This document shows positions 30-56,100 of a stretch of 64,000 nucleotides of DNA, piece after piece. The stretch's first letter is position 1. Each line of letters opens with the position of its first letter. The position numbers and the translations under genes are program-made. Below the pieces are notes generated by a model. The model saw only the letters and a program-made list of their open reading frames with translations, did no database searches and was not told the origin of the DNA. Source of the DNA: Eledone cirrhosa. Taxonomy: Eukaryota. The stretch is from contig OZ024743.1 in the NCBI GenBank assembly GCA_964016885.1, forward strand, positions 266,600,001-266,664,000, given 5' to 3'.

Positions 30-2081
30 CTAGGTTGTGGTGGTGGTTTGTTGCGGGGAAACCATGTGTTTTCGTATTTTTGCCCTATTAGTGTGTGCTA
101 TTGTGTGGCCTAGGTTTGGTGCTGTGGAGAAAGAGAATTTTACAGTGTGCCTATTGAAGAGCTTGTGGTATTTGTGTGTGCGTGGAAAAGATTGTTCGAG
201 AGCCCTGAAGAAGGTTCCCGGTATGTTAGTGGCGACGTGTATAGAATAGAGGGCGTTATACCATGTGACAGGTCTACTTAGGTTTATGCAGTGTTTAGTG
301 AAGTCTCTGTGGTTGGGTGGTAGTTTGTATGTGTTTTGGTCAGGCGTATGTTTCATAGTGGTTCCAAGTAATCTATTGGCGTTATGTCCTTTGTCTCTAT
401 TGGTACGCAAACGTGTGCGATAGTCGGAGACGTTATTGGGGTTGGAGAGTATGGCTTTATCTCCTAGACAGTTATGTGTGGTGCTCTCTGCACTGCCGGC
501 TAGGGAGGGTCTTAGGTTATTGTTTGTCCTAGGTGTGGAGATTTCTTCTAAGGATCCGGTTATTTTTAGAGGTGTTACGGTTCTATTTGGGTCGATGTAA
601 GAAATCTTCTCAGTATAACCAGCGTTTATAAGTGCGGAGTCGTAGTATTCCGCGCGCTGCTTGAAGATGTTTTCATTAGCCGACAGGGTGGACACTCTGT
701 TGGAGACGCTTTTAACTATTGAGTTAATTATGCTCCTAGGGTGTTTGGAGTGTCTATTGACGTATCTAAGATTTTCATTAGGTTTGTGGTAGGGTGACAT
801 CTAAAAAGCTAACTGTCCTGTTGTTAGGTTCGATTTCTACTGCTAAACCTTGGGTCTTAAAGATGTACCTAAGTCGTTTGTGTAGTCTATTTAATTGGCT
901 ATTATTAAGTCCACGGGTCAATAGTATGGCATCATCCCGGTATAAGCCACCGCCCAAGGAGGGGATCTCGTCTGTTAATATATTTAGGAGGTATATGCCT
1001 ACTACATCTGTAACCTGTGCGGAGTCAGTCGATCCCATGGTGATGTCGAAGCTATCTGGTCTCTTCTGTCGTTCTCACAATCTTCCGTCCAATTCTAGTA
1101 AAGTTTTCCTAGCTGTTATTATTATGTCCACTTCTTTTCTAGTGAGGCTTGATCTATTCATGGCTGAGATCAGTGCCTTGTTAAGGATGATTGAGGATAT
1201 AGATGCGTAGTAGTTGGTAATGTCCAATTGGACTAATCTAACATTCGACTTAGTTTCAATGGCACAAAACCAGTCTATTACCTCCTTTGTACAAGACCAT
1301 AGGCTGAGTATAGTTCTAATCCTAAGTTCAGGTATAATTCGGTCAATGATTGATTTGCTAAGTCTACCTAGGTCCGATTTGGAAGGGGCTATGAGCCTGA
1401 CCGGTAGTTTTGACTGGAAGTCCGGATTATGGTCTTTAATGGATAGTCTCGGTGTCCTAGGGTTGTAAGGATAGGTCCTGTCGTCAATACTCAGTTCGGT
1501 CATTATTGTTTTCGCCTGTTTGTTTATGTGTGCTTGGTTTTCTCGTGTTGATGTTTTGTATATTTTAGCGATTTCGTTTGTAATGCATCTGTTGTAGGTT
1601 TTGTACTCCAAATTATATAGGTTTCTTGTTTTATCAGCTGGTACGATAATGCCAGTGCTATTCTTGATCTTTTTTATGGTTGAGGCGAGCCCAGACAGGA
1701 ATGCACTTCTGTCAGGGTTTCGCGGTGGTTTCCTGAATCTAATTATCCGGACCATGGTAATGATCCTGCTCTCAAACTCCTCAAGGAGAGGGTTGTGCGG
1801 TGGGTTTTTCGTAGATTTAAAAAGTATTTTTATGTGGTTGGTGGGATTGTCAATTGATCCAGGGGCCCTCCTGTTGTTGTAGTGGTAGGCCCTCCAACGG
1901 ATCCTCCTGATGAAATTATTAGTCTGCTTTAGTAATAGGTCCATGTAGACATCTTCCGAAGGTATAGGAATGTCCTTTAGGGAGGAAGTGTTGTAGAACA
2001 ATTCCATGGTGTTCCAGGTAAGCGTTCGACAAAGAAAGGAGCTAAATAGCCAGGGGGTGTAACTAGGAGTTACTGCAGGTT
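30..2081 (-). mobile_element. Penelope-like retroelement, lineage A (Naiad-like, tentative); frameshifted RT; any endonuclease would lie off the left edge
   Basis: ORFs 1075-2184, 778-1038 and 30-800 join into one PLE RT: SLKDIPIPS..FIRRIRWRAY, VPADKT, QLDITNYYASI, MGSTDSAQVTD, LYRDD, VSFLDVTL, PYHKPN..HP. Probable ATG at 2007 (MELFYNTS). Confidence 0.9.
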
Positions 2082-2376
2082 CGCCGATTATTGAGTCGGG
2101 TAGGATCGATATAGATCGAACCTTGAGCTGATGAGTGGCGAAACGCGCGTCACCTATCAATAAATGCAATGAAGGAATAACCAATCGTCCTGTTATCCTT
2201 TCAATATATTACACTCTGTATAGCTCTACACCTCATCACAGAAGTGAACCTAAACATCGAGTGCTCTCACGGGTGAACCTGCAGTAACTCCTAGTTACAC
2301 CCCCTGGATATTTAGCTCTTTTTTTTTGTCGAGCGCTTACCTGGAACACCATGGAATTGTTCTACAACACTTCCTC
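2082..2376 (+). mobile_element. Inverted pseudo-LTR of the preceding PLE, running into the ORF start
   Basis: 2276-2376 is the reverse complement of 1982-2081 and ends in ATGGAATTGTTCTACAACACTTCC (MELFYNTS). Carries an HHR-like core and AATAAA at ~2159. Confidence 0.8.
2128..2151 (+). ncRNA. Hammerhead-like motif (partial)
   Basis: CTGATGA-gtggc-GAAA-cgcgcg-TC with palindromic stem III. Stem I pairing is poor, so the true 5' core may have been lost at the inversion junction. Confidence 0.5.
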
Positions 2377-3885: not shown

Positions 3886-4466
3886 AAAATGCTGAAGAAT
3901 ATATATAAAAACTAAATGTAAACAAGTTGACTCCTGTATCTCTCGAAGGAAACATATAAGAATAATAAATTTAGTCATCTACTAATATAATATTTTTTCA
4001 TATTTTATCGCATATTTTATCTGTTTTGACTTTTTAATGTTCAAAGTATAAAATGTTCCTTCAGCCTCTCAACTATTTTTTTATTCTTTATTGATATTCT
4101 CAGTTACATTTTCCTAGCTATATATCACTTGTAAACACACATATACACACAAACAAATATAATTGTATACATAAATTCAAATATATGTATATTCGTCATT
4201 GAAATCTATAATACAAATATTGATTTTATATATTTATTTATCTTTCTTACGTTTGTTTTGTGTTCTTGTATTTTCTGTTTTATTTTGTATTTTCAGTTAA
4301 TTTAATTCCTAACAAACATTTTAAAAATATAAAATATATTTACATTTGTTGTCAGAAGAAACTATTAGAGAAACAAAATGAATTTGAATGAAAAAACGAG
4401 TGATTCGTTGTTGATTTACGATACATTTATGTTAGAATCTCCATCTTGTAGACAGCTACAAGCAGG

Positions 4467-5501
4467 GAACTTCTGACATGGTTGTATTAACATCTACCTT
4501 TGAAAGATAGCTACATGTACTGAACTTCTGACATGGTTGTATTAACATCTACATCTTAAAGATAGCTACATGTACTGAACTTCTGACATGGTTGTATTAA
4601 CATCTACCTTTGAATGATAGCTACATGTAGTGAACTTCTGACATGGTTGTATTAACATCTACCTCTTAAAGATAGCTACATGTAGTGAACTTCTGACATT
4701 GTTGTATTAACATCTACCTCTTAAAGATAGCTTCATGTACTGAACATCTAACATGGCTGTATTGTCATCTACCTCTTAAAGATAGCTACATGTAGTGAAC
4801 TTCTGACATGGTTGTATTAACATCTACCTCTTAAAGATAGCTACATGTAGTGAACATCTAACATGGCTGTATTGTCATCTACCTCTTAAAGATAGCTACA
4901 TGTACTGAACTTCTGACATGGTTGTATTAACATCTACCTCTTAAAGATAGCTACATGTACTGAACTTCTGACATGGCTGTATTGTCATCTACCTCTTAAA
5001 GATAGCTACATGTACTGAACATTTGACATGGTTGTATTAACATCTACCTCTTAAAGATAGCTACATGTACTGAACATTTGACATGGTTGTATTAACATCT
5101 ACATCTTAAAAATAGCTACATCTACTGATCATTTGACATGGCTGTATTGTCATCTACCTCTTAAAGATAGCTACATGTACTGAACATTTGACATGGCTGT
5201 ATTAACATCTACATGTTAAAGTTAGCTACATGTACTGAACATCTGAGATGGTTATATTAACATCTACCTCTTAAAGATAGCTACATGTACTGATCATTTG
5301 ACATGGTTGTATTAACATCTACATCTTAAAGATAGCTACATGTACTGAACATTTGACATGGCTGTATTAACATCTACCTCTTAAAGATAGCTACATGTAC
5401 TGATCATTTGACATGGTTATATTAACATCTACCTCTTAAAGATAGCTACATGTACTGATCATTTGACATGGTTGTATTAACATCTACATCTTAAAGATAG
5501 C
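4467..5501. repeat. Minisatellite, 55-bp unit, ~19 copies
   Basis: Unit gaacttctgacatggttgtattaacatctacctcttaaagatagctacatgtact recurs at 4467, 4522 and onward; degenerate relatives continue to ~5930. Confidence 0.95.
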
Positions 5502-6661
5502 AATATACACTGGAACTATTGTAAAGTTATTTCAACACATCTACATGGAAAAAAGAAGTAACACTGTTTGATCGTGTCAATTTTGAAGATAAACTATTAT
5601 AATTTGATGTTAATATTTCTACTTAGAATATTCCTACATGTAGATAAACTATAGCAACATTATTTCAATACCTGTACAGTGAAAAGTATTATATGGAGAA
5701 GAAAGTATTCTTTTCTGAAGATAGATTCATATAAAATAAGTTTTCTTATGCTACACATGGATAAACTATAACAACACTATTTCAACACCTTTGTTCTGAA
5801 GATGTAGTGGACCTGTGGTAACGTTATCTTAACATCTAAACATTTTAAAGTAGTTGTAGTAGCAACAACATGTAGAGAAGTTATAGTAACGTTATCTGTG
5901 CACGTCGTTTCTACAGATTGCTCTATGTAGAGAAATGATAATGATTAAGATGATGCTAACATTTAGGAAGAATAGTGAAACAAGAGAGATGACTAAATTA
6001 TAAACCTCAATCTTTATTATTAATGCTGCCAGGCGCTAACGGCATTTTACCAACTGAACAATGTGATAGGTGGCCAAGAAACAACAATTGCATTCTATAG
6101 AGGGTTAGTGGAAGGTATGAGCGACGATGGTTCTGGGTGCTGATAGGAACATACTGAATAGGTTCTTCTGGAAGACTTTTAGGTCGGTAGTTATGGACAA
6201 TTTCTTGACATGGCAGAGTTACAGGAATCTTCTTCTCCGACAAAGACCTTATCACTTTCTTCACGATCCACTTGAAGAAGAAGGTGAGGGTAAACAGGAA
6301 GGTGTTGCATTCTGTCTTGTTTTATGAAAGATGGGTGAGAGCAGAGAGATTAATGTGAGCCCTATGTGGTTAATAATGAAATCATTACTATTTTCATCAT
6401 CCCTATCACCACCACCATCATATATTGGAAAAAGAAGTACAAGAACCAATGTGATATATAGGCTTTCCCAGTGCTATAACGGCTTGACTGTGGGATGAGA
6501 TTGAAATAATCCACAGCGGCATTTGTGAAGTTCACAGATCCTGAGATGGAGCCTCAAGGAAACACCTGGCCGATTAACCCACTCGATATGCAAATTGGAC
6601 TTCTCAGCCGTTAATATGCATAAGGTAAGTATATACGTTCAAGAATCTGGCTGGAAGGTAT

Positions 6662-9222: not shown

Positions 9223-9443
9223 TATTAGAAATGTAAGCTATCGCCGTATTTTGACTAAAGAAATTAAAGAAATTATTTAGCCTGATAGTGGGGTTAAGAA
9301 CCCTCGGAGAAATGGAAAAAGATGAGTATGTAGTCAATACTCATCTTTTTCCATTTCTCCGAGGGTTCTTAACCCCACTATCAGGCTAAATAATTTCTTT
9401 AATTTCTTTAGTCAAAATACGGCAATAGCTTACATTTCCAATA
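9223..9443. repeat. Fold-back palindrome, 107-bp arms, 7-nt loop
   Basis: 9223-9329 is the reverse complement of 9337-9443 with ~2 mismatches; between (TA)n tracts. Confidence 0.95.
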
Positions 9444-17535: not shown

Positions 17536-18476
<941 letters not shown>

Positions 18477-18478
18477 AC

Positions 18479-21400
18479 ATACGAGTTTACACCAACACCA
18501 TCAACACCGATGTAAGAAAATTACAACTTACCAAAAAGCAAGCAGATAGGCTAAAACGAACACTAATTCTAAACATAAAAAAAAAGATTTACAGAGAATT
18601 AAGTCATCAAGAAAAATATAAGCGTAACCTAATACAAGAAATAACTAAGATCACCACACCAAGAGAAAAATTAATATTTATAAATCTTATATGTCTTGAA
18701 GAAATGTACATTGTTCAAGAATGTGACAAGCACTTTAATAAGAAATTAAGGTGGATCAAACAGATGAAACTAAACCAAGAAACTTTAGAGAATAGCGATA
18801 GATATCCTGACAAGATTGACCGTATAAAAATGGCCGACATCTCATTAACAGATGAATTCAACAACAACACAAATATATACGGCAACACTACAGTCGACTC
18901 TGATGAATTATCGATATTACAGCTAGCACCTAAATATGCCACATATAATAAGGTAAATTTGATAAAATGCTTGTCAGAAATAGAAAAATCATTTACAAAA
19001 TTACGTTGGAGCCTCAAAAACAAAAACAAAAGTAACAACATACGCACACACACACACACTTACAACACACATCCCAACAACAACAGACACACAGACACAA
19101 ACAACGATAACAACAACACACACATCAACAATAATAACATACTCAGAAACAAAAACAACAGACACACAGACACAAACAACAATAATAACATACACGGAGA
19201 CAACAACAACAACATACATCTACAACAGTATGCATCAACAACAACAACACACACACATTATATGCCTCTCACCACCACCACAATCTTAACAAACACACAG
19301 ACACAGAAAACAGGTAATGACAGTAACACAGAAGTAAGGGAAGGTAATGGGATTGAAAGGAGAGGGAGACTACCGATACTGACAGAGAAAATAACAAGGA
19401 CGAACACACAGACACACAAAATAGAGTAGATCATAACAATGAGCCAGAGGAAAGAGACAGCAGTAAAAATGAGAGACATAAAAACAACGATGAGGCTGTT
19501 GGTGGAAATAGAAATAGAAACAGCACAACTAACAATAGTACAAATAAAGCAGCAGCCTGGAATTCTACTTTTTATAATCCTTCCGATATGTCCTTCGATC
19601 TACGACGAGTCCACGCCACGACTTTAGCTTTTAACAAAGGCACGCAATTGCCGTCGCAGGTCGATGACCAAACAGAAGCACAATTTAGTATAACTAGATC
19701 TAAACTTAGAAATATTATAGAACAGTATAGCAAGAAGCAAAATAGAATGGAGGCCCAGCAACTGGGAGAAAAATCTGCAAATGGCTTGCGTAAGCTCATA
19801 ATAAAAGGACTGCCAACAACTTCCAGGCCTGGAACAATGACGTACCAGCGTTGTATGGGCTTCGAAAAGACCATAAAACAGCAGTGACCCTCTCACAGGT
19901 GCACCAGCACGGCCAGTCTCTGGAGCTAACATTGCTAGTAACTACATACTCTCCTACTTTCTCTCTCTGATCATACGCCCCATCATTGAAATGTCCCTAG
20001 AAATATGTGACAGCACGGAGGACCTCCTCAGCAGAATCAACGAAAGTAATCGATCTAGGGACCTAACAAACTGGATAATAGATAGCATGGATGTTGTGTC
20101 CCTATATCCATCCATTCACGTGGATTTTGCTGTGGAGAAATGTGTAGAAAAGATCAGTGAGAGCAATGTTGAATTCTGTGGGATTGATACCAGTGAGCTG
20201 GGACTCCTACTTAAACTTACCTATAGTAATGATTATCTAGATACATATTACCTTAGCAGCCTGTGCCCTACAAGACCATCAAGAAGCAGACCACCTACCA
20301 TTACCTCAATAGCCAAGAAAACCCACACAGATAGATGGAACGGGTGGACCAGAGTCATACGGACTCCAGAAAACCACGATGAACTAAAGAAAATGATGCT
20401 CAAGAGGAGGGAGCAGCCATTGGTATTAGCATTGCAGGTGACATAGCTAAACTATTCATGGTATGGTGGGACAATAGACTTAAACTTAAACTTAAAGAAC
20501 AATTAGAAGGTAAAACCTCTTAACCCTGATAATGTACTCCCGCTACGTTGATGATATAAACGTAATAATAACACCCCCACTAGAGAACAGTCAGGAATTA
20601 AAGAAAAACACCATGGAAAGCATCCAGAAAATAGCTAACAGCATCCACCAGAACATTAGAGTTACTATAGACTACCCAAGTAAACACCCCAACCATCGAT
20701 TACCTGTACTAGACACAGAGCTTTGGTTAGAAACTATTAATAACAAAATACAAAAAAAATCCTCCATTCCCATATAGGCCAAACCCATGACTTCCAAATA
20801 TCTGATCCACCGAAACTCAGCTGTTTCGGACCACACCCAAATCAACATACTGATTGCGGATTTGGTACGGGTGATGAGAACCGTGTCCCGCACGTGCAAC
20901 CCCAAAGAACTAGAGAGACAAATACAACGCTTCATCCACCGTATGCAGTTCTCTGGTTACAATCAGAGAGATAAAATCAGAGTGTATAGAGGAGCCAGAA
21001 CCAAATGGGAAAAAATGGTAAATAATGATACAAATGGGACCTGCCCCTTGTATAGGAGCAAATTTTGGAATAGAATAGAAGTAACTAGGAATAAGGTTAA
21101 TAGAATAAACTCATGGTATGATAGCAATAAATACCAGAGTGTAATGTTCATCAATACAAACCCTAGAGGTGAATTAGCTTACACATTTAGAAGGGGTCTA
21201 GTTAAAAATAAACTCAATATTAAGATAGTAGAAAGACCAGGTACCCGCATAAAAACACTTATTAGCAATACATACCATTTTCAAAGGTATAGATAAGAAA
21301 TGTATAATCTGTAAACTAAGCCCCCATATTAACTGTAAAACTAGAAATGTAGTATATAGCATAAGATGTAGTGAAGGACAATGTAGATATAAGAATATAG

Positions 21401-21720
21401 TGTACATAGGTAAGACAGCTCGTAGTATAGGAGAACGGATAAATGAACATTGGCGAGCGCTTCAACATAGAAAAGAATCATCTGTAATCCGCCAACATGC
21501 TAAAATAGAACATAAGGGTAAATTAGAGAACATAGAAATAAAAATAGAATCTACACAGAGAAAAGACGCAATGTTTAGACAAATCACAGAGGCAATAAAC
21601 ATAAATGAACTCCAACCAAAATTAAATAGAAAACATGAATGGAATAGCAACATCACAACTTAAAATTAAGGACAAAATGAAAACACACACACACATAGAA
21701 TAAACAACCAACCAATAAAT
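18479..21720 (+). mobile_element. PLE lineage B, near full length, frameshifted and with internal deletions
   Basis: SMDVVSLYPSI, YSRYVDD, LPVLDTELW, RMQFSGY, Cys-rich linker, YIG endonuclease; Asn/Thr-rich N-terminal region. Confidence 0.92.
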
Positions 21721-22448: not shown

Positions 22449-22589
22449 ATTTACACTTAGAATTTAATATTCTATCATACTATTTCATTATAATACCATA
22501 TTATATATATTTTAAAGGATTGTAAATAAAACGAGTAAATCAGACAAAGTTGGAATTCCTCTTATTAATATATATATATATATATATAT

Positions 22590-23050
22590 AATTAAGTTAA
22601 AGTGTACATCTACATATGTATACGGAAGTACTAGTATGCATATAAATACACATATGTATACATATGTACATGTACCGAGCTTTTCACTAGACACTTTACA
22701 GTGAGTGTCCAGCTAGTCTGTATGTAAACACACAGACGAACCGGGTTTTAAAGTCATACGGGTTTTCAAGGAAACACACTTCCTCTATTCTCCAGAGAGC
22801 CAGACAGGAATATTGGACTAGTTTCGATATTCCTGTCTGGCTCTCTGGAGAATAGAGGAAGTGTGTTTCCTTGAAAACCCGTATGACTTTAAAACCCGGT
22901 TCGTCTGTGTGTTTACATACAGACTAGCTGGACACTCACTGTAAAGTGTCTAGTGAAAAGCTCGGTACATGTACATATGTATACATATGTGTATTTATAT
23001 GCATACTAGTACTTCCGTATACATATGTAGATGTACACTTTAACTTAATT
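22590..23050. repeat. Fold-back palindrome, 224-bp arms, 13-nt loop containing the 3' half of an HHR
   Basis: 22590-22813 is the reverse complement of 22827-23050 (no mismatch seen); same family as 50290-50937; right arm extends to ~23123, then (TA)n. Confidence 0.95.
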
Positions 23051-23278
23051 GTTTAAGCGTCAGTCATACAAAAGTGAGTTAGAAGCGAAACGAAATTTAA
23101 TTTCGTTTCGTTATTTGTTTTTATATATATATATATATATTGGAAAATGTGTGAGATCGTTGGTGCATTTAGGTATATTTGAAAAAAAGGAAAAGAATGA
23201 CTTCACTTATCACACTTCCTCTCACAGAGTGAAGTCATTCTTTTCCTTTTATCAAATACACACACACACACTCACACT

Positions 23279-32640: not shown

Positions 32641-33111
32641 TATATAGTCAGCTTGGTCTTCAGACATTAACCTGCACCCCACATTTTTACCTAATTATTT
32701 AATTTCGATACCTTCTGGTGCGTCATCGTATAGATATACCTGCCTTCTTTTATTTACAACTGCTCAGCCCTTCAGTCTATATTGGAGAGATATGCTACCT
32801 CTCTCATAATACACCAATTAGTCAAACTTTCTGCACCTCGAATCATTAGTCACCTGACTCAGTAGATGCCAAAAACTATATACTCACTCTGTGGGGAATA
32901 TCGGGACCGTAGGATACCTACAGCTAATACATCTTCAATATAAGATTGCGCGATGCATGATCTACATTGCTTGAGATAACCGTCACATATGAATGTCTCA
33001 GATAATAATATACACAAGTATACACATATATTACTTTTATATATCTGTATATTCTGTATATATATATCTGTATATATATATATATATATATATACATATA
33101 TATAGCGAGAG

Positions 33112-33149
<38 letters not shown>

Positions 33150-33304
33150 ATATACACGGGTGTGTATGATTGTGTATAGAAGATTATATTAATAAGAGGA
33201 ATTCCAACTTTATCTGATTTACTCGTTTTATTTACAATCCTTTAAAATTTAAAATGGTATTAGAATGAAATAGTATGGTAGAATATTAAATGTTAAGTGT
33301 TAAT

Positions 33305-33343
33305 TGAACAAGTACTTTCATGCTTTCGCAATCTTCAGGTTCA
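33305..33343 (-). ncRNA. Minimal hammerhead, same as 22410
   Basis: Reverse complement of 33417-33455. Confidence 0.88.
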
Positions 33344-33416
33344 TATTTTGTGGTGCCAGTCAAGTTTGCAATTTTCAACAGTTGAAAATTGCAAACTTGA
33401 CTGTCACCACAAAATA

Positions 33417-33455
33417 TGAACCTGAAGATTGCGAAAGCATGAAAGTACTTGTTCA
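33417..33455 (+). ncRNA. Minimal hammerhead, same as 22410
   Basis: tgaac-CTGAAGA-ttgcgaaagcat-GAAA-gtac-TT-gttca. Confidence 0.88.
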
Positions 33456-33572
33456 ATTAACACTTAACATTTAATATTCTACCATACTATTTCATTCTAA
33501 TACCATTATAAATTTTAAAGGATTGTAAATAAAACAAGTAAATCAGACAAAGTTGGAATTCCTTTTATTAAC

Positions 33573-33902
<330 letters not shown>

Positions 33903-35515: not shown

Positions 35516-35739
35516 TTATACTACTCAAATATTGTTACAGTGATTTTCTGCATCCTTTCAAAATTCACACACTCCCAGCAATTCGATAATAGATGATATA
35601 TCGACAGTCAATCGCACCAATCGGACCGAGAAAACAATGTTTCCGTTGGTCTTTTCAGGTATAAACTGTCTTGCTCAAGAACATAACGCATCATCTGGTC
35701 CAGGAATCGAACTCACAACCAAACGATTGCAAATCCACT

Positions 35740-38365
35740 TATCGTACCACTAACCTGAACATTTCTACAAAGAACATACCCGTACCTAGCAGGAAGTTAT
35801 ACCTAAAACTTCTGATACAGAAAACAGACTCGTTCATTAAAAGGTTGCGTTGGCGTGCCTTTTATTTCGATAACCAGGAAAACGCGGACAATAAACAGGA
35901 TAAATTTGGGTTTAAAACTTATAATAACCCTCCGAGAAACCCAGCATTGCTACCCTTCGAAAATGATGTATTGGAACTCATACGGAGTATCAAATTTTGG
36001 AATAGGAGCAATTCCTTCCAGCAGGACCTGAAGAATAGAATTCGTTCTATTAAGGATACTAATGCCGTGCACGCCCACTCCGTCAAAACTGGCAATCTAT
36101 ATCAAGTGGAGCGCAGTACTTACCATCAACTGCTACATAATGCCGTAACTAAGGATTACCGGAAAACCAATCGGAATGTCATTAATGACATCAATGATGC
36201 TGGGTTTAATATCACTTCTGAACTCAACATCCAGGACCGGACTGAACCTCTGGACCCTATTTCTCCCCACTTTACACTTATGGATCACAAACTCAATTTC
36301 GCCAACAACCCCACTATTCGGCAAATTAACCGCACGAGGTTTGATTTAGGTAGACTTAGTAAAAGGATTTTAGATAGAATTATACCTAAAATTAGAAGCT
36401 TGTCCCCTCTTACACTGTGGAACAATTCTTTCGTGGTGATTGATTGGTTCAATGGCATATGCAACAAGGAATATTGCCGTTTTATCCAATTCGAAATCAA
36501 TAACTACTACTCCTCCATCACTTTACCTTTCTTCTTAGAGCTATCAATTTCGCTAAAACGATCACGGTGATTAAGGAATTCGAAGTTGATGTCATCCTCA
36601 ATGCCCCTAAATCGGTGATTAATTTCGACGAGTCTATTTGGATAAAAAAATCTAATAGTACCCCATTCGACGTGAGCATGGGCGCCAGCGATTCGGCGGA
36701 GGTTACAGATCTTATCGGCCTTTTCCTTCTTTTCTCTATCAAGGAAGAATTCCCCAATGTGGGCGGTGGCTTGTTCTGCGATGACGGTCTTTTGACCATG
36801 ACAAAGCGCCGTCCACGCGCTTGCGACAGGTTCAGAAAAGAACTCACAACCTTCTTTAAAGGCTTCAACCTCTCCATACAGGTTGAGGCTAACCTCTCGG
36901 TCGTTAATTACCTCGACATTACACTCAATGTGTCGAATGGCTTGCATTACTCGTATAGAAAGCCGAATGATACGCTTAATTACATAAGTAAGCATGCTAC
37001 CCATCCAGCGAGCATAACCAAGAACCTGGTAAGTAACGTTTCTTTGCGGCTTTCCCGTCTATCTACAAACGAGCATATTTTCACCGACCATTCCACATTT
37101 TACAATGAAGCTCTTGCTCGGAGCGGATTTGTCGATAAGGTAGCATATACTAAGTATGAGCATAGACCAAGGAAAAATAGATCCCGACGCATTATATGGT
37201 ATAACCCACCATATAATATGGAGGTGGCCACACCATTAGCTAAGATCTTTCTCTCCCTTATTAAGAAGCATTTTCCCTCAGCACATAAATATAATAAAAT
37301 CTTTTATAGAAATACCATTAACATATCTTACCCTACGACTCCTAACATTGCACATAACATCACTGCTTCGAATTTAGCTAAATTACCTACCTGTAGGAAC
37401 ATGTGCAACCTTGTAGCTAGTACTAACTATAATTATAGGAATCGGGCTGACTGCCCCCTATCCGGGAAATGCCTCTCCAGTAACACTCTCTACAAATGTA
37501 AGGTCGAAACACTCACGTCCCGTAGGGCCTACGTTGGGTTAACCGCCAATAGATTGAAGCAGCGTCTTTACATGCACATCCATTCTTTAATAACCCTTTA
37601 AGAAGTCATATGACGTCACTTTTGGCTTATATCTGGAGTCGAAAAGACAACCACACCCAATATAGGTTACACTGAGAGATCCTAGCTAAGACTAGATCGT
37701 ATAACGGAAATAAAAGACCTTGTGATCTTTGCGCCGCTGAAGCCCAGGAAATACACTACGCCAATGACCACATCCTAAACAACAAATCTGAGGCAATTTC
37801 GGCTTGTAAACACAAATTGCATAAAACCTTCCTGTATTACAGCCCCACATTATACCCAAACGGATAGTACGAACAATACGCGGATAATTTACGTCTTGAT
37901 GTGGGAGCTAAGTATATTTTATACCATTACTTATTTGTATAAGTAAGTATACCTTACCCGTATGTTTTGTGAAGGTACGTATGCTTTCTCGTACGTTTAT
38001 ATGCTTGTATTTGTTATAGGTGCATATATTATATTATATATACTGATATATGTGTATATGGTTATGTGTATATGTGTATATGTTTATTAGCCTACGACTT
38101 CATTTACACCTTAAACGTGGTTTTCGTCTTTGCGTGTATTTTTTCTCATCGCTCCACATAATGACGTTTTATCTCCGCATTTTCCCGTTCATTGCCAGGG
38201 AACGTCTTCACGAACCAAAGTATCGTCTTGCTGTTTTCAATCGGTTGCATCGTTTTTCGAAATATTTAATTCTGCGTTCAGAGATTGATTATTTTAGTTT
38301 CAGAAGATCTCTTTAAGGGTGAAAGCAGCGATTCTTTGCTTAAACTTTAATCTGTTATTTTAATA
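35740..38365 (+). mobile_element. Near full-length PLE, lineage A (Naiad-like, tentative), frameshifted
   Basis: STKNIPVPS..FIKRLRWRAF, KTGNLY, MGASDSAEVTD, FCDD, VNYLDITL, WYNPPY, CPLSGKC..YVGLT, CDLC..LNNKSE..CKH; coding ends ~37867, then 3' UTR. Confidence 0.93.
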
Positions 38366-40571: not shown

Positions 40572-40660
<89 letters not shown>

Positions 40661-40714
40661 TAAACAAATAATGAATAAAACAATGAAACAGTTCCTTATA
40701 TTAAACAAAAAAAG

Positions 40715-40869
40715 TTCATTATTTAACGATCGTTTCTAGGATATATATGTGTTAGAATTGGCATGCATATTCAACAGATCTATGTACAAAATTATACAAA
40801 ATTATACAAACTATCAAGATTAAATATACATACCAAACACACATATATGCCGTCTTCAGAAATAATGAA
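40715..40869 (-). ncRNA. Hammerhead with 116-nt stem II region
   Basis: Reverse complement of 47610-47764. Confidence 0.8.
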
Positions 40870-41471
40870 ATATATTTATTGATAATAACTACAATTCAAA
40901 ATTTCAGGTCCGTTTGGGAACGGAGTTCAAATTGACCAATGAAAATACAAAAATTTTTTATGCAGTTTGGTGTGTGTATATACATGTAACTAACCTCGTA
41001 CACATATTTATACAAAGATATATGCTCAACATGCATACGCATGCCAAAAAGATGTATGCAAATACAAAAATTCAAGGCTAATGTCTCTGTAAGTTTATAA
41101 TCCACAGATAAAATGCGTATAGACACATAAATATGAAATAAGTGTATACACATATTCACATACTCACACATATCCGTACACTCACACACACACGCGCGTA
41201 TATGCATAAACATACACATAATTACGAACATACACACACCCCCACACACATATATATGTGGATATAATATTATCATAAGCACATGGATATTAAAGCACGC
41301 ACATATACACTGCCACACACATTTAGATCCAGATACAGAAATTAGGTGGGAGGGGGGGAGAGGTCAGTATTCAACGGTTTCGGCAGACTGCTTATTTATA
41401 GATGTATCTATAAACTTATGAATAAAAAGAAAAGAAAAGAAAAAGAAAAAAGAAAAAAGAAATATATCAAG

Positions 41472-41514
<43 letters not shown>

Positions 41515-41983
41515 ACACATACAACACACACACACACACATATATAAACATATACATACATACATACATACATATACACACATACATATATATACATATA
41601 CACACATATATACACATATATACACACACACATATATACACACACATATATACACATACACGCACATATACATACACATACATACTTATATACATACAGA
41701 CATACACATACATACATATATATACACACATCAACATACAGACATACATACATACATACACACATACACACATACATACACACACATACATACTCATACA
41801 TAGACATAGATATATATTCACACACACATACGCACTTACATATACGCATATATACAAATACTTACGCATCCATATATCCGTATATACATACAAACACCAC
41901 TACAGTCTCACACAACTCAGACATACAAAGAAAAAGGTATATACATATACATATACACATACAAATAGAGATACATATACATA

Positions 41984-42017
<34 letters not shown>

Positions 42018-42219
42018 CACATATATATACATATATATATATATACACATACATACATGCACACACACATACACATACATACATACACACATACACACAT
42101 ACATATATAGTCACACACACAAACACACCTACACATACATACACATACACATATATAAAGATATATATACACACACATACACACACACATATATAATAAA
42201 CATATATATATATATACAC

Positions 42220-42254
<35 letters not shown>

Positions 42255-43120
42255 TACACATATAGATACATACATACACATACATACATACATATACACA
42301 CATATATAAATACACACATACATACATACATACATACACACACACATACATACACACACATACATATTCATACATAGACATAGATATATATTCACACACA
42401 CATACGCACTTACATATACGCATATATACAAATACATACGCATCCATATATGCGTATATACATACAAACACCACTACACTCTCACACAACTCAGACATAC
42501 AAAGAAAAAGGTATATACATATACATATATACACACATAAATAGAGATACATATACACATATATATATATATATACATACATATATATATATATATACCC
42601 ACACACACATACAACCATAAACACACATACAAACACATACATACATACATATATACATATATATACACACACACAAAAACACACATACACATATATATTT
42701 ACATATATATATATATATACATACATATACACACCCTCACATATATATATATACACATAAGTTATATTATAATAATAAATAATATATATATATATACACG
42801 TACAAATATATATATACATAGACATACACATATATATATACACACACACACACACACTCACATATATATGTGCGCACACGTACATATATACACATACACA
42901 CATATACACATAAACATATACATGTGCATACATGTACATACACACATATACCCACATAGATACGAAGATACACATATATATAGAGAGACATACATATACA
43001 TACACATATATACACACACATATATACACACATATATATACACACACATACACGCCCACACACACATACACATATACATATATATATATATACACACACA
43101 TATACACACATATATATACA

Positions 43121-43168
<48 letters not shown>

Positions 43169-44342
43169 ATCATACATTTTTATTTGCATGCGCATATATG
43201 TATTTTTATACTCAGATATAAACACCCAAACATATATACACCTACCTACATATATATTCATACATACACGCTTACAAATACAGATGATAATAGTATGGGG
43301 GAAAGGGGGGTGGAGAAGGGGATTATAGTAAATATATGTTTCAAGAAACATAGAATATTAATCTGTATTTGGATCTCAATATATGTTTTTACATAGTTTC
43401 AGTGTTAGGAAATGCAAGAAATAAGGTAAAATTATGCATTTCAAAATAAGTATACCATTAATTATAGGTTAACTAAACTAAAGATAGTTAACATATTGAT
43501 TTCTAATGTGTAAATTACTTAGGTTTATGATATTTGAAGCAGAATTTTGAAGTTAAATAGTAGTAGAGTATTAATTATAGTATAACTAAATTAAAATTAT
43601 TAACGTTATGGTATCAATATTAGGAAATGAATTTAGTAATAGGGAAAAAACAAATAAAGTATTACATCGGTAGTAGAATATAAATTATAGGTTAACTAAA
43701 TTAAAAATTATATATTAATTTCTATAGTATATGTTAATTAGGTATATAATAAATAAAACAGATATTGTATTTTATCAATAGCAGAATATAATTATATGCA
43801 AATAGAAATCAAAATTAATACATATATATATACATATACATACACATATATATATATACACATATATATACATACATACACATACATATACATACATACA
43901 TATACATATTTTTTCAAAAATTGCAAAGAATATATTAACTAGGTATACATCCAAAACACATCCCATTCTATGATTACATGACACTCTGCAATCCGTCTGT
44001 ATTAGGATACTAATATTAAGCCAATTAAATTAAATTTTTAGGTTGACTAAATTTAAAACCAAATTATAAATATATTTCTAAAATGTATATTAATTAGGTC
44101 TATAATACTAAAAATTATTTCTCTGTCATTGAATACACGATATTTTGTTATATTTTATCTGTAAAGGAATTTTAATAAAGGGTTAAATAAATTAAAATTA
44201 ATCTATAAATTAAATTACTAAGTATATATTAGTAATATTTAAAGGTTTTTCACAATTTATGATTACACAATATTTTATATTCTCATCTGTAGTAGAATTT
44301 TAATTAAATTAAATTTATAGGTTAACTAACATTTAAATTAAA

Positions 44343-44639
44343 TTATATATTAATTTCTAAAATAATGTTATTAATTAGGTTTATAATATTTAAATGTTTT
44401 TTTAGTTTATGATTACACGATATAATTAATTCCTGTCGTTTATTTAATAGGATATCCTTAGATTTCATTATTTCAAATAGTTCTCGGGAACATAATCTGC
44501 ATTCATTTCTATTATTTTGATAAGGGGTGGCTCTTTTGAGCACACTCCAGGTCAAATCATATTCTATATTCTTATTTTTATAACTATTGATTTTTTCTGC
44601 TAGAGATGTTGTATTAGCCAGTGCGGCATTTTTAAAACT
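44343..44639 (-). pseudogene. C-terminal fragment of lineage-A PLE GIY-YIG endonuclease
   Basis: SFKNAALANTTSLAEKI..TWSVLKRATPYQ..CRLCSRE..LLNKRQELIISCNH, collinear with 37580-37830. Confidence 0.85.
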
Positions 44640-45230
44640 AAGTTTTAAAAATGCCGCACTGGCATTTTTAAAACTTAGTTTTTATAAAACTTAGTTTTTT
44701 ATAGTTAACCTATAATTTATATTCTACTACCGATGTAATACTTTATTTGTTTTTTCCCTATTACTAAATTCATTTCCTAATATTGATACCATAACGTTAA
44801 TAATTTTAATTTAGTTATACTATAATTAATACTCTACTACTATTTAACTTCAAAATTCTGCTTCAAATATCATAAACCTAACTAATTTACACATTAGAAA
44901 TCAATATGTTAACTATCTTTAGTTTAGTTAACCTATAATTAATGGTATACTTATTTTGAAATGCATAATTTTACCTTATTTCTTGCATTTCCTAACACTG
45001 AAACTATGTAAAAACATATATTGAGATCCAAATACAGATTAATATTCTATGTTTCTTGAAACATATATTTACTATAATCCCCTTCTCCACCCCCCCTTTC
45101 CCCCATACTATTAATCTGTATTTGTAAGCGTGTATGTATGAATATATATGTAGGTAGGTGTATATATGTTTGGGTGTTTATATCTGAGTATAAAAATACA
45201 TATATGCGCATGCAAATAAAAATGTATGAT

Positions 45231-45290
<60 letters not shown>

Positions 45291-46397
45291 TGTATATATA
45301 TGTGTGTATATGTGTGTGTATATATATATATATGTATATGTGTATGTGTGTGTGGGCGTGTATGTGTGTGTATATATATGTGTGTATATATGTGTGTGTA
45401 TATATGTGTATGTATATGTATGTCTCTCTATATATATGTGTATCTTCGTATCTATGTGGGTATATGTGTGTATGTACATGTATGCACCTGTATATGTTTA
45501 TGTGTATATGTGTGTATGTGTATATATGTACGTGTGCGCACATATATATGTGAGTGTGTGTGTGTGTGTGTATATATATATGTGTATGTCTATGTATATA
45601 TATATTTGTACGTGTATATATATATATATTATTTATTATTATAATATAACTTATTTGTATATATATATATGTGAGGGTGTGTATATGTATGTATATATAT
45701 ATATATGTAAATATATATGTGTATGTGTGTTTTTGTGTGTGTGTATATATATGTATATATGTATGTATGTATGTGTTTGTATGTGTGTTTATGGTTGTAT
45801 GTGTGTGTGGGTATATATATATATATATGTATGTATATATATATATATGTGTATATGTATCTCTATTTATGTGTGTATATATGTATATGTATATACCTTT
45901 TTCTTTGTATGTCTGAGTTGTGTGAGAGTGTAGTGGTGTTTGTATGTATATACGCATATATGGATGCGTATGTATTTGTATATATGCGTATATGTAAGTG
46001 CGTATGTGTGTGTGAATATATATCTATGTCTATGTATGAATATGTATGTGTGTGTATGTATGTGTGTGTGTATGTATGTATGTATGTATGTGTGTATTTA
46101 TATATGTGTGTATATGTATGTATGTATGTGTATGTATGTATCTATATGTGTATGTATATGTGTATATATATATATATATATGTGTATATATATATATATA
46201 TATATGTTTATTATATATGTGTGTGTATGTGTGTGTATATATATCTTTATATATGTGTATGTGTATGTATGTGTATGTATGTGTAGGTGTGTGTGTGTGT
46301 GTGACTATATATGTATGTGTGTATGTGTGTATGTATGTATGTGTATGTGTGTGTGCATGTATGTATGTGTATATATATATATATGTATATATATGTG

Positions 46398-46431
<34 letters not shown>

Positions 46432-46952
46432 TGTATATGTATCTCTATTTGTATGTGTATATGTATATGTATATACCTTTTTCTTAGTATGTCTGAGTCG
46501 TGTGAGAGTGTAGTGGTGTTTGTATGTATATACGGATATATGGATGCGTAAGTATTTGTATATATGCGTATATGTAAGTGCGTATGTGTGTGTGAATATA
46601 TATCTATGTCTATGTATGAGTATGTATGTGTGTGTATGTATGTGTGTATGTGTGTATGTATGTATATGTAAGTGCGTATGTGTGTGTGAATATATATCTA
46701 TGTCTATGTATGAGTATGTATGTGTCTGTATGTATATGTGTGTATATATATGTATGTATGTGTATGTCTGTATGTATATAAGTATGTATGTGTATGTATA
46801 TGTGCGTGTATGTGTATATATGTGTGTGTATATATGTGTGTGTGTATATATGTGTATATATGTGTGTATATGTATATATATGTATGTGTGTATATGTATG
46901 TATGTATGTATGTATATGTTTATATATGTGTGTGTGTGTGTGTTGTATGTGT

Positions 46953-47000
<48 letters not shown>

Positions 47001-47609
47001 TTGATACATTTCTTTTTTCTTTTTTCTTTTTCTTTTCTTTTCTTTTTATTTATAAGTTTATAGATACATCTATAAATAAGCAGTCTGCCGAAACCGTTGA
47101 ATACTGACCTTTCCCCCCCTCCCACCTAATTTCTGTATCTGGATCTAAATGTGTGTGGCAGTGTATATGTGCGTGCTTTAATATCCATGTGCTTATGATA
47201 ATATTATATCCACATATATATGTGTGTGGGGGTGTGTGGGGGTGTGTATGTTCGTAATTATGTGTATGTTTATGCATATACGCGCGTGTGTGTGTGAGTG
47301 TACGGATATGTGTGAGTATGTGAATATGTGTATACACTTATTTCATATTTATGTGTCTATACGCATTTTATCTGTGGATTATAAACTTACAGAGACATTA
47401 GCCTTGAATTTTTGTATTTGCATACATCTTTTTGGCATGCGTATGCATGTTGAGCATATATCTTTGTATAAATATGTGTACGAGGTTAGTTACATGTATA
47501 TACACACACCAAACTGCATAAAAAATTTTTGTATTTTCATTGGTCAATTTGAACTCCGTTCCCAAACGGACCTGAAATTTTGAATTGTAGTTATTATCAA
47601 TAAATATAT

Positions 47610-47764
47610 TTCATTATTTCTGAAGACGGCATATATGTGTGTTTGGTATGTATATTTAATCTTGATAGTTTGTATAATTTTGTATAATTTTGTACATAGA
47701 TCTGTTGAATATGCATGCCAATTCTAACACATATATATCCTAGAAACGATCGTTAAATAATGAA
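47610..47764 (+). ncRNA. Hammerhead with 116-nt stem II region
   Basis: ttcattattt-CTGAAGA-[cggcatatatgtgt..tggtatgtatattt...gaatatgcatgcca..acacatatatatccta]-GAAA-cgatcg-TT-aaataatgaa; 10-bp stem I. Confidence 0.8.
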
Positions 47765-48145
47765 CTTTTTTTGTTTAATATAAGGAACTGTTTCATTGTT
47801 TTATTCATTATTTGTTTAATATTTTATCTTGACTCTGTATTCCGTTTATCTTTCACCGAAAGTGATTTTTCATTGCATCTCTTCTTTCCATGATATCCGG
47901 AATACATTGTGTTCTTCATACGGATTGGACACTACCGTAAACTCTTGGTAGATTTATCTACATATATATATATATATATATATAAAAGACGTCTTTTATA
48001 TTATTTACGTGTTTTATATTATTTATGTCTTTTATATTATTGTTCTGCATCCTCCTGCATTGAACCACCTAGGTACTATGACATATCCTGTGTATTTGCT
48101 GGCATTAGCGTACATCTGTGCGCTTATGTTACTAGATATATTAAA

Positions 48146-50289: not shown

Positions 50290-50932
50290 TAAAGTAACCA
50301 GTGAAAGACTTGATACATCTACATATGTATACGTGTGTGTATTCATATGCATACTAGTATTTCAGTATACATATATGGATGTACATTTTTAACTTAATTG
50401 TTTAAGCATCAGTCATACAAAAGTGAGTTACAAACGAAACGAAATTTAATTTCGTTTCGTTATTTGTTTTTATCGTCTCCGTTGAACCGGTACGTACTCA
50501 CACTCTATGCAAATTGGTCTCCCCACTACTAATTTTCATAGAAAAAGCATATAACGATATGTGCTTTTACGATTCTCCAGAAAGGCCGGTAGATAGGTAA
50601 ATATTGCTGATGAGTTGTAACAACAACGAAACTAGTTCCATATTCCTTGTCTGGCTTTCTGGAGAATAGAGGAAAGGTGTTTCCTCAAAAACCGGTATGA
50701 CTCTAAAAACCGGTTTGTCTGTGTGTTTACATACAGAATAGCTGGATACTCACAGTAAAGTAACCAGTGAAAGACTTGGTACATCTACATATGTATACGT
50801 GTGTGTATTCATATGCATACTAGTATTTCAGTATACATATATGTATGTACATTTTTAACTTAATTGTTTAAGCGTCAGTCGTACAAAAGTGAGTTACAAA
50901 CGAAACGAAATTTAATTTCGTTTCGTTATTTG

Positions 50933-50937
<5 letters not shown>
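50290..50937 (+). mobile_element. pLTR-like module with partial tandem duplication (50290-50473 repeats 50756-50939)
   Basis: ~180-bp direct repeat; homologous to 22827-23123; has ATGCAAAT and an HHR; ends in (TA)n. Confidence 0.8.
50601..50644 (+). ncRNA. Minimal type-I hammerhead
   Basis: atattg-CTGATGA-gttgt/aaca/acaac-GAAA-ctag-TT-ccatat; the sister copy at 22810-22826 reads TC-caatat, restoring stem I. Confidence 0.8.
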
Positions 50938-51860: not shown

Positions 51861-51988
51861 AAAGTTTTATTTAAAATTGTTCGGTTACAACAAGTAAATA
51901 TTTTATAACTGATATAAAGCACTCGACAAGTTTTTGGAGTAGATATACGATATTAAACAAATGGAAACTATATTTATAAAACCATATT

Positions 51989-52054
51989 TATTTCATTATA
52001 CATATTTCAGGGATATCATATTAAAAATATGGCATGCCTTCGTCAGATAAAATA
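51989..52054 (-). ncRNA. Type-I hammerhead ribozyme
   Basis: Inverted copy of 52910-52975. Confidence 0.75.
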
Positions 52055-52909
52055 CAATATATAAACAGTTTTATAAATAATTTTGACGTACAATAAATAT
52101 AAGCGACCATTAAGGTAGGAAGCTGGCTTGGTAGTGAAGTGTTTATAAATATTTAGTGTTAAGCACAGTTATAAAGAAAGATGGAGAAAAAGAAGAAATA
52201 TATGTAAAGAAAAACAGAGAGGAAAATAGAGAGTGAGATAGGGGAGAGAGAAATAGGGAGGAGGTGAAAAAGAGAGGCAACCGAAGAGCTATATCTAGAG
52301 AGAGGGATGATAGAGTTACATCTTTACGTCATGTCCTATCAATTTGAATTATTATCCCTCTCTCTAGATATAGCTCTTTCTTCTCTTCTCTCTTTATGTA
52401 TGATGAAGTTTATGTATCTTTCGTTTTGACTTTGCCTCTCATGTTTCTCTCTTATTTCTCTCTTGATTTTCACCTCCCCCTATATAATTATTATTATTTT
52501 TTCTCCCTCATTCTTTACCTCCCACCTCTCTCTCTCTCTGTCTTCTCTTCATCTCCATTTTTTCTTTCTCTCCGTCTCTTCTCTAACTGTGCTTAACACT
52601 ATAACTAAATAATTACCGTACTCCCTCCCTCTTAAAACTCTCAATTTGTATAATGAATTATTATTATTCATCTGTTGCCTTCGGTTGCCTCTCTTTTTTC
52701 ACCTCCTCCCTATTTCTCTCTCCCCTATCTCTCTCTATTTTTCTCTCTGTTTTTCTTTACATACATTTCTTCTTTTTCTCCATCTTTCTTTATAACTGTG
52801 CTTAACACTAAATATTTATAAACACTTCACTACCAAGCCAGCTTCCTACCTTAATGGTCGCTTATATTTATGGTACGTCAAAATTATTTATAAAACTGTT
52901 TATATATTG

Positions 52910-52975
52910 TATTTTATCTGACGAAGGCATGCCATATTTTTAATATGGTATCCCTGAAATATGTATAATGAAATA
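52910..52975 (+). ncRNA. Type-I hammerhead ribozyme
   Basis: tattttat-CTGACGA-aggc-atgccatatt/ttt/aatatggtat-ccct-GAAA-tatgta-TA-atgaaata. Confidence 0.8.
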
Positions 52976-53014
52976 AATATGGTTTTATAAATATAGTTTC
53001 CATTTGTTTAATAT

Positions 53015-53051
<37 letters not shown>

Positions 53052-54199: not shown

Positions 54200-56100
54200 T
54201 ATAATAACTAGAAATTGATTAACATATAAATAAACATGAATAATCACAGGAGATAATTTTTACAAGTGTATAAGCACACATAGCTAGGTAGGTAACTAAA
54301 TAAAGTTAACCAGAACTTCAAAAATAGATACCTTATAATATGATTAATCTTCCCTGTATATATTCCATTAAAGAAATATATTTAACCAATTAATCGAATG
54401 GTAAACCATGGAGGCCGGTACTTGGATTTTCAACAAGGAAGAAGTCCAGCGATCTATGTTTACACTTCAAGTTCAAATCAGCGGCTGGCCAGCAACACGT
54501 GCTGTATCTACTAGAAATACACACATCACACATCATACCAGCTTCGTCACAGTGGCGTGAATAGGGTTATCGACAACTAGAAACAGCAGTCAAATCCTTT
54601 CAACAGAGTTAGCTCTACAATTAAGGAGCCGTATTTATATATCTATATCCAAAATTAAGATAATGAAAATTATGGGTGTCATACCAGAAAGACATGCGCC
54701 ATATCACCCGCAAAATAAGCTCTAAGATTCTAACGAATAGGTCCGAGCATTTTATAATAACTAGAAATTGATTAACATATAAATAAACATGAATAATCAC
54801 AGGAGATAATTTTTACAAGTGTATAAGCACACATAGCTAGGTAGGTAACTAAATAAATTTAACCAGAACTTCAAACATAGATACCTTATAATATGATTAA
54901 TCTTCCCTGTATATATTCCATTAAAGAAATATATTTAACCAATTAATCGAATGGTAAACCATGGAGGCCGGTACTTGTATTTTCAACAAGGAAGAAGTCC
55001 AGCGATCTATGTTTACACTTCAAGTTCAAATCAGCGACTGGCCAGCAACACGTGCTGTATCTACTAGAAATACACACATCATACCAGTTTCGTCACAGTG
55101 GCGTGAATAGGGTTATCGACAACTAGAAACAGCAGTCAAATCCTTTCAACAGAGTTAGCTCTACACTTAAGGAGCCGTATTTATATATCTATATCCAAAA
55201 TTAAGATAATGAAAATTATGGGTGTCATGCCAGAAAGACATGCGCCATATCACACGCAAAATAAGCTCTAAGATTCTAACGAATAGGTCCGAGCATTTTA
55301 TAATAACTAGAAATTGATTAACATATAAATAAACATGAATAATCACAGGAGATAATTTTTACAAGTGTATAAGCACACATAGCTAGGTAGGTAACTAGGT
55401 AACTAAGTTGACCAGAACTTCGAAAATAGACACTTTATAATATGATTAATCTTACCTGTATATATTCCATTAAAGAAATATATTTCATCAATTAATCGAA
55501 TGTTAAACCATGGAGGCCGGTACTTGGATTTTCAACAAGGAAGTTTCGTCAGCTTCGTCACAGTGGCGTGAATAGGGTTATCGACAACTAGAAACAGCAG
55601 TCAAATTCTTTCAACAGAGTTAGCTCTACAATTAAGGAGTCGTATTTATATATCTATATCCAAAGTTAAGATAATAAAAATTATGGGTGTCATGCCATGA
55701 TGTGTGTATTTCTAGTAGATACAACACGTGTTGCTGGCCAGCCGCTGATTTGAACTTGAAGTGTAAATATAGATCGCTGGACTTCTTCCTTGTTGAAAAT
55801 CCATGGTTTACCATTCGATTAATTGGTTAAATATATTTCTTTAATGGAATATATACAGGGAAGATTAATCATATTATAAGGTATCTATTTTTGAAGTTCT
55901 GGTTAACTTTATTTAGTTACCTACCTAGCTATGTGTGCTTATACACTTGTAAAAATTATCTCCTGTGATTATTCATGTTAATCAATTTCTAGTTATTATA
56001 AAATGCTCGGACCTATTCGTTAGAATCTTAGAGCTTATTCTGCGGGTGGTATGGCGCATGTCTTTCTGGCATGACACATAATTTTTATTATCTTAATTTT

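What the first reader, a model, noticed from the sequence alone, without database searches (positions are those of the whole stretch)
22590..23050. 224-bp fold-back turns at a hammerhead cleavage site
Seen: the 13-nt loop read on the minus strand is CGAAA-CTAG-TC-CA, the 3' half of the HHR that is intact at 50601-50644. The plus arm starts at ATATTCC, 2 nt after the predicted GUC cut; the minus arm starts just before GAAA. Inference: one arm was copied from a self-cleaved RNA and the inversion formed at that 5' end. This would tie ribozyme cleavage to the inverted-pLTR structure of PLE insertions.
Basis: partly seen in the sequence, partly recalled or inferred. Interest (0 to 1): 0.75.

Follow-up and report, generated by a model that had tools for sequence, protein, structure and literature searches.

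The report
Two-armed hammerhead retrozyme insertion
This mirror-image stretch is one of well over a thousand insertions of a small repeat carrying a predicted self-cutting RNA motif, most of which have the same two back-to-back arms, and its turn beside the predicted cut site is likely chance, because the family's turns fall all along the repeat and peak 6-11 bases past the cut rather than at it.

Summary
The palindrome is in the assembly as described: perfect 224-bp arms and a 13-nt loop. It is one insertion of a 470-nt type I hammerhead retrozyme into (TA)n; 1680 insertions share its exact 3' end. Head-to-head arms are the family norm (210 of 292 parsed). One arm ends at +300 and the other at +223..+232 (+1 = first base after the predicted cut), the Penelope 'tail' signature. 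Inner breakpoints cover the whole monomer, and over 90% of arm passes read through the ribozyme. Positions +1..+6, where this copy turns (+3), show no excess (3 against 5.4 expected). The join has a 2-nt AT microhomology, and the inverted arm itself runs through the cut site. What survives is a 2.7- to 4-fold pile-up at +7..+12, seen in two samplings, one of several peaks of similar size. A block by the folded ribozyme fits it better than run-off at a cut end followed by trimming, but both remain open. An apparent bias of this peak to the inverted arm did not reproduce. Raw reads across the join were not obtained. Verdict: known architecture, central inference unsupported, one modest testable hotspot.

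The parts
22568..22589 (.). (AT)11 left target microsatellite
22590..22828 (-). Inverted, tail-less arm: monomer +226 (outer end) to -11, or -13 with the microhomology; runs through the predicted cut site
   Evidence: (L218)
22814..22826 (-). 13-nt loop: 3' half of the hammerhead (GAAA, stem III, GUC); predicted cut between 22816 and 22815
   Evidence: cut position from the NUH rule (established knowledge)
22827..22828 (.). 2-nt AT microhomology at the inner join
22827..23124 (+). Direct, tailed arm: monomer +3 (or +5) to +300
23051..23124 (+). 74-nt tail (+227..+300) present on one arm only
23123..23140 (.). (AT)9 right target microsatellite
50290..50936 (+). Second family insertion (GUU subfamily), 5'-truncated at +118, 647 nt, not inverted, ending at +300 on (AT)n
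50589..50660 (+). Type I hammerhead fold, GUU triplet, one stem I mismatch
   Evidence: RF02275, 34.5 bits, under the gathering score

Best explanation
The palindrome is one insertion of a 470-nt hammerhead retrozyme in a (TA)n run, likely made when a Penelope-type reverse transcriptase primed from both ends of a cut target and the two cDNAs were joined head to head at a 2-nt microhomology, and its turn next to the predicted ribozyme cut is likely coincidence. Shown: tandem monomer with a hammerhead in each unit, (TA)n targets, two fixed outer ends (+300 and +223..+232), scattered inner ends and short junction overlaps. Inferred: a Penelope-like RT/endonuclease acts in trans; the template is mostly uncut multimeric or circular RNA, because arms read through the ribozyme; host microhomology end joining makes the join. 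A perfect fold-back appears whenever the two stop points happen to be close modulo 470. The family-wide peak at +7..+12 is more likely a block by the folded ribozyme (inferred, about 0.55) than run-off at a cut end plus trimming (about 0.35).
For: 1680 exact 3' ends. 210 of 292 parsed insertions are inverted. 148 of 168 measurable inverted outer ends lie at +223..+232, 144 of them on (TA)n. Inner ends occur in every 20-nt bin. Near fold-backs (ends within 30 nt) number 29 of 190 against 24.7 expected. This junction occurs once in the genome. Junction overlaps of 1-6 nt occur in 94 of 190, and +3 has the most 3-nt microhomology partners of positions +1..+20 in this subfamily (15; monomer mean 6.3). 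There is no excess at +1..+6 although microhomology is richer there than at +7..+12. The peak occurs with GUC- and GUU-type references (2.97x and 2.17x). The predicted fold puts the stem I bulge at about +7/+8. A purified Poseidon PLE protein cleaves and extends both strands at AT-rich DNA, starts at two internal RNA sites, and does not need hammerhead cleavage (PMC11167929).
Against: Breaks near the ribozyme are not uniform: inverted-arm ends at +1..+20 are 22 of 209 against 8.8 expected, in both subsamples, and +4..+10 was the strongest 7-nt window for that arm (1 of 5000 simulations). A cDNA joined at +7..+12 may have reached +1 and been trimmed. A start at +3 is what a cut template would give, and a single copy cannot exclude that. 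No autonomous partner was identified. No reads across the join and no RNA data were available.
Confidence: 0.72

Rival explanations
1. One reading: the plus arm ran off a self-cleaved 5' end, lost 2-4 nt and was joined to the other cDNA, so cleavage set this turn.
For: The plus arm starts at +3/+5. There is a family peak a few bases further on, at +7..+12. Two tandem copies show 1-2 nt losses at the cut (L396).
Against: No excess at +1..+6 (3 against 5.4; 9 against 9 upstream). Tailed arms show 0.95x at +1..+20. About 4 such copies are expected by chance. The other arm reads through the cut.
Confidence: 0.15
2. Single-RNA twin priming on a cut multimer: the upstream-primed, tail-less arm runs to the RNA's cut 5' end and the tailed arm stops near the second priming site. 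This could hold for the family but does not explain this copy's turn.
For: In the +300-anchored sample, +4..+10 ends were 14 of 231 passes for inverted arms against 3 of 327 for tailed arms (P 7e-4). Tailed-arm ends on later passes are enriched at +200..+270 (46 of 221 against 23.6).
Against: The arm bias did not reproduce: 15 tailed to 14 tail-less at +7..+12, against 6 to 7 in a control window. The +200..+270 excess is also present in non-inverted copies (10 of 48 against 4.2).
Confidence: 0.15
3. Snap-back self-priming: one cDNA folded on itself at the ribozyme and copied itself.
For: The arms are identical. Self-priming was proposed for palindromes at inverted Penelope junctions (PMC3846280).
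Against: A top-strand snap-back cannot supply the 74-nt tail absent from the left arm, and a bottom-strand one cannot supply the sense-orientation loop. Fold-backs are no more frequent than chance (29 of 190 against 24.7). Identical arms are common (17 of 39 pairs of 150-300 nt).
Confidence: 0.05
4. Assembly or amplification artefact (chimeric fold-back).
For: Perfect arms; no bridging contig among the pieces listed.
Against: The left arm ends at +226 on (AT)11, the commonest inverted-arm end (77 of 210). The flanks differ on the two sides and are not mirrored.
Confidence: 0.04

Closest known systems
Metazoan non-LTR retrozymes (Cervera and de la Pena 2020, PMC7229834; Li, Clavereau and Pollet 2026, 10.64898/2026.07.22.740005)
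   Same: Low-GC, non-coding tandem units, each with a type I hammerhead; monomers to multimers; proposed non-autonomous derivatives of Penelope-like elements.
   Different: The unit (463-471 nt) is a little longer than the 150-450 bp quoted. In the main text of PMC7229834 'inverted' occurs 0 times, and the preprint uses it once, in a reference title. Two-armed insertions and breakpoint maps are not described in the parts I read.
Endonuclease-bearing Penelope-like elements: inverted pLTRs and tail (PMC3846280, PMC8557442, PMC11167929)
   Same: An inverted 5'-truncated copy head to head with the direct copy; a tail at one end only; (TA)n or AT-rich targets; two fixed priming sites downstream of a hammerhead.
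   Different: No ORF. The tail is 69-74 nt, not 30-40. The driving element was not identified.
L1 twin and dual priming (PMC2837659)
   Same: Two RT priming events on opposite target strands and an internal join, often with microhomology.
   Different: The second priming site is fixed, there is no poly(A), and the arms overlap in monomer coordinates because the template is a repeat.

Membership tests
Type I hammerhead ribozyme | CUGANGA and GAAA core boxes with an NUH triplet | tested here: met
   One search lists the motif variants. Of 162 monomers, 88 have GTT, 71 GTC and 3 other. GUU is listed as an active NUH site in PMC3138052.
Type I hammerhead ribozyme | Stems I-III, stem I open-ended, with covariation | tested here: met
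   Stem II swaps A-U for U-A between subfamilies. A long stem I forms in both subfamilies in a fold with the core held unpaired. Stem III (2 bp, palindromic) is read from the sequence and did not form in that fold.
Type I hammerhead ribozyme | Rfam gathering score | tested here: not met
   RF02275 (HH9), 34.5 bits against 52, E 6.5e-5, on the 50.6-kb copy. This lowers 'is HH9', not 'is a hammerhead'.
Type I hammerhead ribozyme | Self-cleavage | not testable with these tools
   Needs an in vitro assay. Minimal PLE hammerheads cleaved weakly in PMC4209133.
Non-LTR retrozyme | Tandem non-coding units with a hammerhead in each | tested here: met
   Cut-to-cut spacings of 465-470 nt in 108 of 110 monomers; arrays up to at least 4 kb.
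Non-LTR retrozyme | Expression as linear and circular RNA | not testable with these tools
   No RNA holder listed.
Penelope-type insertion | Inverted 5'-truncated copy at the 5' end | tested here: met
   210 of 292.
Penelope-type insertion | Tail at one end only (two priming sites) | tested here: met
   With one end selected at +300, the other end is at +223..+232 in 148 of 168 and at +294..+305 in 6.
Penelope-type insertion | Microsatellite or AT-rich target | tested here: met
   144 of 148 tail-less outer ends abut (TA)n. The +300 ends were selected on it.
Penelope-type insertion | Autonomous RT + GIY-YIG partner sharing the pLTR | not tested
Five window ORFs gave no Pfam match at E 0.01.
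   3 against 5.4 expected; about 4.1 per nt at -7..+6 against 3.9 in a control window.
L1-type twin priming on one RNA | Only the internally primed arm reaches the RNA 5' end | tested here: inconclusive
   Arm bias, none.

The most novel reading that the evidence does not exclude
The pile-up of breakpoints 6-11 nt past the hammerhead cut is the genomic scar of ribozyme-cut RNA templates: a few percent of reverse transcriptase passes run off a cleaved 5' end and are trimmed during microhomology joining. That would be in-genome evidence that hammerhead cleavage acts during Penelope-driven retrotransposition, against in vitro results that it is dispensable, and thousands of junctions could be used to read out cleavage in vivo.
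Probability: 0.3. Interest if true: 0.6.

Novelty: new member of a known kind. Interest (0 to 1): 0.3.

Why it matters
What hammerheads do in Penelope-like elements is open: cleavage was dispensable in vitro and no RNA ends were seen at the cut (PMC11167929). This family offers thousands of young junctions as a natural test. The result is mostly negative: inversion does not depend on the cut, and more than 90% of passes read through it, which fits uncut multimeric or circular templates. The +7..+12 peak gives one sharp prediction that a dead-ribozyme control can settle.

Tried and rejected
(1) Turn fixed at the cut: rejected. (2) Peak specific to the inverted arm: seen in the anchored sample, not reproduced in targeted samples; left unproven. 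(3) Microhomology richness as the cause of the peak: rejected, since +7..+12 is poorer than +1..+6 and than the monomer mean. (4) Stall at the entry of the long stem I (+21..+40): no excess, 9 against 8.6. (5) The 212-222 peak in the scan came from my fixed placement of 20 short inversions; it was removed. (6) Read-level confirmation: no bridging piece among the 16 of 258 shown, which proves nothing. (7) Expression: no RNA holder listed. (8) Pfam on five window ORFs: no match. (9) A generic hammerhead regex missed the known motif and was not used. (10) Earlier-finding look-ups by sequence and by words were empty. (11) No rate comparison of GUU and GUC appeared in the passages read; that GUU cuts more slowly is recalled, not tested.

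Full report
Observation. The window has perfect inverted arms at 22590-22813 and 22827-23050 around a 13-nt loop. On the minus strand the loop is the 3' half of a type I hammerhead. Numbering the first base after the predicted GUC cut as +1, the plus arm starts at +3 and runs 74 nt past the palindrome to +300 (23124), followed by (AT)9. The minus arm runs from -11 to +226, followed by (AT)11. The subfamily's stem II ends ACATC, so the AT at 22827-22828 fits both templates: a 2-nt microhomology. Family reads and contigs match through 22828 and then continue as stem II. The copy near 50600 belongs to another subfamily (about 89% identical), with GUU at the cut and a stem I mismatch; Rfam HH9 scores it 34.5 bits, below the gathering score.

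What it is. The element is a tandem repeat of about 470 nt with a hammerhead in each unit. Stem II shows an A-U to U-A swap between subfamilies, and a long stem I pairs about -65..-32 with +1..+28. 1680 places in the 3.0-Gb assembly carry the exact 3' end joined to (AT)n. This fits a metazoan non-LTR retrozyme; cleavage and circular RNA could not be tested.

Sampling. I took the first 100 of the 1680 places and all 212 places from four patterns that differ only in AT-run length, 312 anchors in all. I dropped 14 fetched twice, 5 with identical junctions and 1 that failed to parse. The remaining 292 are 190 inverted, 20 short inverted, 65 plainly truncated, 14 running off the locus and 3 direct jumps. 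The window's own copy was left out of the breakpoint-position tests. Breakpoints are BLAST ends against real monomers, good to a few bases, and expectations are weighted by how many arms pass each position. The first subsample (100) suggested the peak; the second tested it.

Architecture. Head-to-head arms are the norm (210 of 292). With one end selected at +300, the other lies at +223..+232 in 148 of 168 measurable cases, 144 of them on (TA)n. This is the one-sided Penelope tail, which PMC11167929 ties to two internal RT start sites. Junctions overlap by 1-6 nt in 94 of 190, are blunt in 31, carry inserted letters in 56 and overlap by more than 6 in 9. Near fold-backs are as frequent as chance (29 of 190 against 24.7), identical arms are common (17 of 39 pairs of 150-300 nt, this copy included), and this junction is unique in the genome. 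About 4 copies with both ends within -15..+12 are expected under uniform breakpoints. One search found 3 with a one-subfamily pattern, and the list shows 3 more.

Inner ends fall in every 20-nt bin. 215 of 237 inverted-arm passes and 323 of 333 tailed-arm passes go through +1..+20 without stopping. Pooled over both arms (430 ends), +1..+6 has 3 against 5.4, -7..-1 has 5 against 6.3, +7..+12 has 15 against 5.5 and +13..+20 has 14 against 7.5. A genome-wide pattern for breaks between -7 and +12 gave 148 raw hits. I parsed 50 distinct ones and left out 1 internal deletion: 31 lie at +7..+12, 9 at +1..+6 and 9 upstream. One of the 31, L378, is really at -7. Without the 6 loci shared with the first sample the count is 26 of 43 (P 9e-5). 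A control pattern for -32..-14, with similar detection odds, gave 103 raw hits, of which 21 of 29 parsed were true breaks. Rough densities are 3.9 per nt in the control, 4.1 at -7..+6 and 15.3 at +7..+12. So +3 is at background and the peak lies 6-11 nt past the cut.

Results against my reading. For inverted arms, +1..+20 holds 22 of 209 ends against 8.8 (9 of 76 and 13 of 133 in the two subsamples), and +4..+10 is the strongest 7-nt window on the circle (14 against 2.8; 1 of 5000 simulations). Pooled, the peak is one of four of similar size and its scan-corrected P is 0.09. The anchored sample suggested it was specific to the inverted arm (14 of 231 against 3 of 327). The targeted samples gave 15 tailed to 14 tail-less at the peak and 6 to 7 in the control, so I do not claim the asymmetry. 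Because flaps can be trimmed at joining, a break at +9 does not prove the RT stopped there.

Mechanism. Inferred: a Penelope-type RT/endonuclease cuts both strands of (TA)n and primes at +300 on one side and +226/+231 on the other, on mostly uncut multimeric or circular RNA. Each RT stops at a variable point and the two cDNAs are joined by short microhomology. In this copy the stops fell about 15 nt apart modulo the unit, giving a palindrome, and +3 offers the most 3-nt microhomology partners of +1..+20 in this subfamily. For the +7..+12 peak I favour a block by the folded ribozyme. The stem I bulge lies at about +7/+8. The peak appears with both GUC and GUU references (slower cleavage at GUU is recalled). 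Positions +1..+6, richer in microhomology, are not used more, as run-off would predict. Run-off plus trimming is not excluded.

Literature seen. PMC11167929: parts 1-2 of 4 (abstract, main text, start of methods). 10.64898/2026.07.22.740005: part 1 of 5 and passages. PMC4209133: part 2 of 4. PMC3846280, PMC8557442, PMC7229834, PMC2837659 and PMC3138052: passages. No supplements were seen; Fig. S2 of PMC11167929, on genomic ends and RNA ends at the cut, may bear on the claims. Searches listed no paper that maps inversion breakpoints against a hammerhead cut, judged from titles and abstract starts, and the library lacks most subscription journals. Earlier notes of this scan describe the same two-armed layout in this genome; they are unchecked leads.

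Verdict. A real and ordinary member of a known class. The headline inference is not supported. A modest, reproducible hotspot beside the ribozyme is worth one experiment. Interest 0.3.

Noticed in passing
family-wide, monomer +200..+270: Tailed arms longer than 110 nt end here about twice as often as expected (46 of 221 against 23.6), around the second priming site; inverted arms do not (25 of 168 against 20.7). Possibly a bound protein or a second primer blocks the RT.
   Followed up: partly
G000:C1:218586958, C3:193565444, C3:366688974, C4:255994454, C9:41704849: Junctions at +7..+9 preceded by short stutter repeats of the template's own CCTTG unit. Similar templated insertions occur at other positions (L044, L230, L359), so this is probably general end-joining.
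   Followed up: partly
L396; G000:C5:62273306: Tandem copies lacking 1-2 nt exactly at the cut site; these could be scars of RNA cleavage and religation.
   Followed up: no
family monomers: The larger subfamily has GUU, not GUC, at the cleavage triplet (88 of 162 monomers) and is just as young and mobile.
   Followed up: partly
window 40652-47827: Large near-perfect inverted repeat (about 3 kb arms, about 1 kb spacer) with a (TA)n flank on one side and internal units of about 280 nt; likely another two-armed insertion.
   Followed up: no
window 9243-9423, 18036-21693, 33052-33708, 51940-53024, 54233-55979, 1982-2376: Further inverted repeats with arms of 43-400 nt, several next to microsatellites.
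   Followed up: no
window 60063-61403 (-), 35665-37598 (+), 18476-19426 (+), 1078-2208 (-): Open frames of 300-450 codons; the first has a YVDD motif and resembles a Penelope-type RT (recalled), but none matched Pfam at E 0.01.
   Followed up: partly
window 4327-5616: 55-bp tandem array, about 23 units.
   Followed up: no
G000:C13:6664768-6667127: Two +300 ends facing outward 2.3 kb apart: a rare insertion with tails on both arms (6 of 168 inverted arms end near +300).
   Followed up: no
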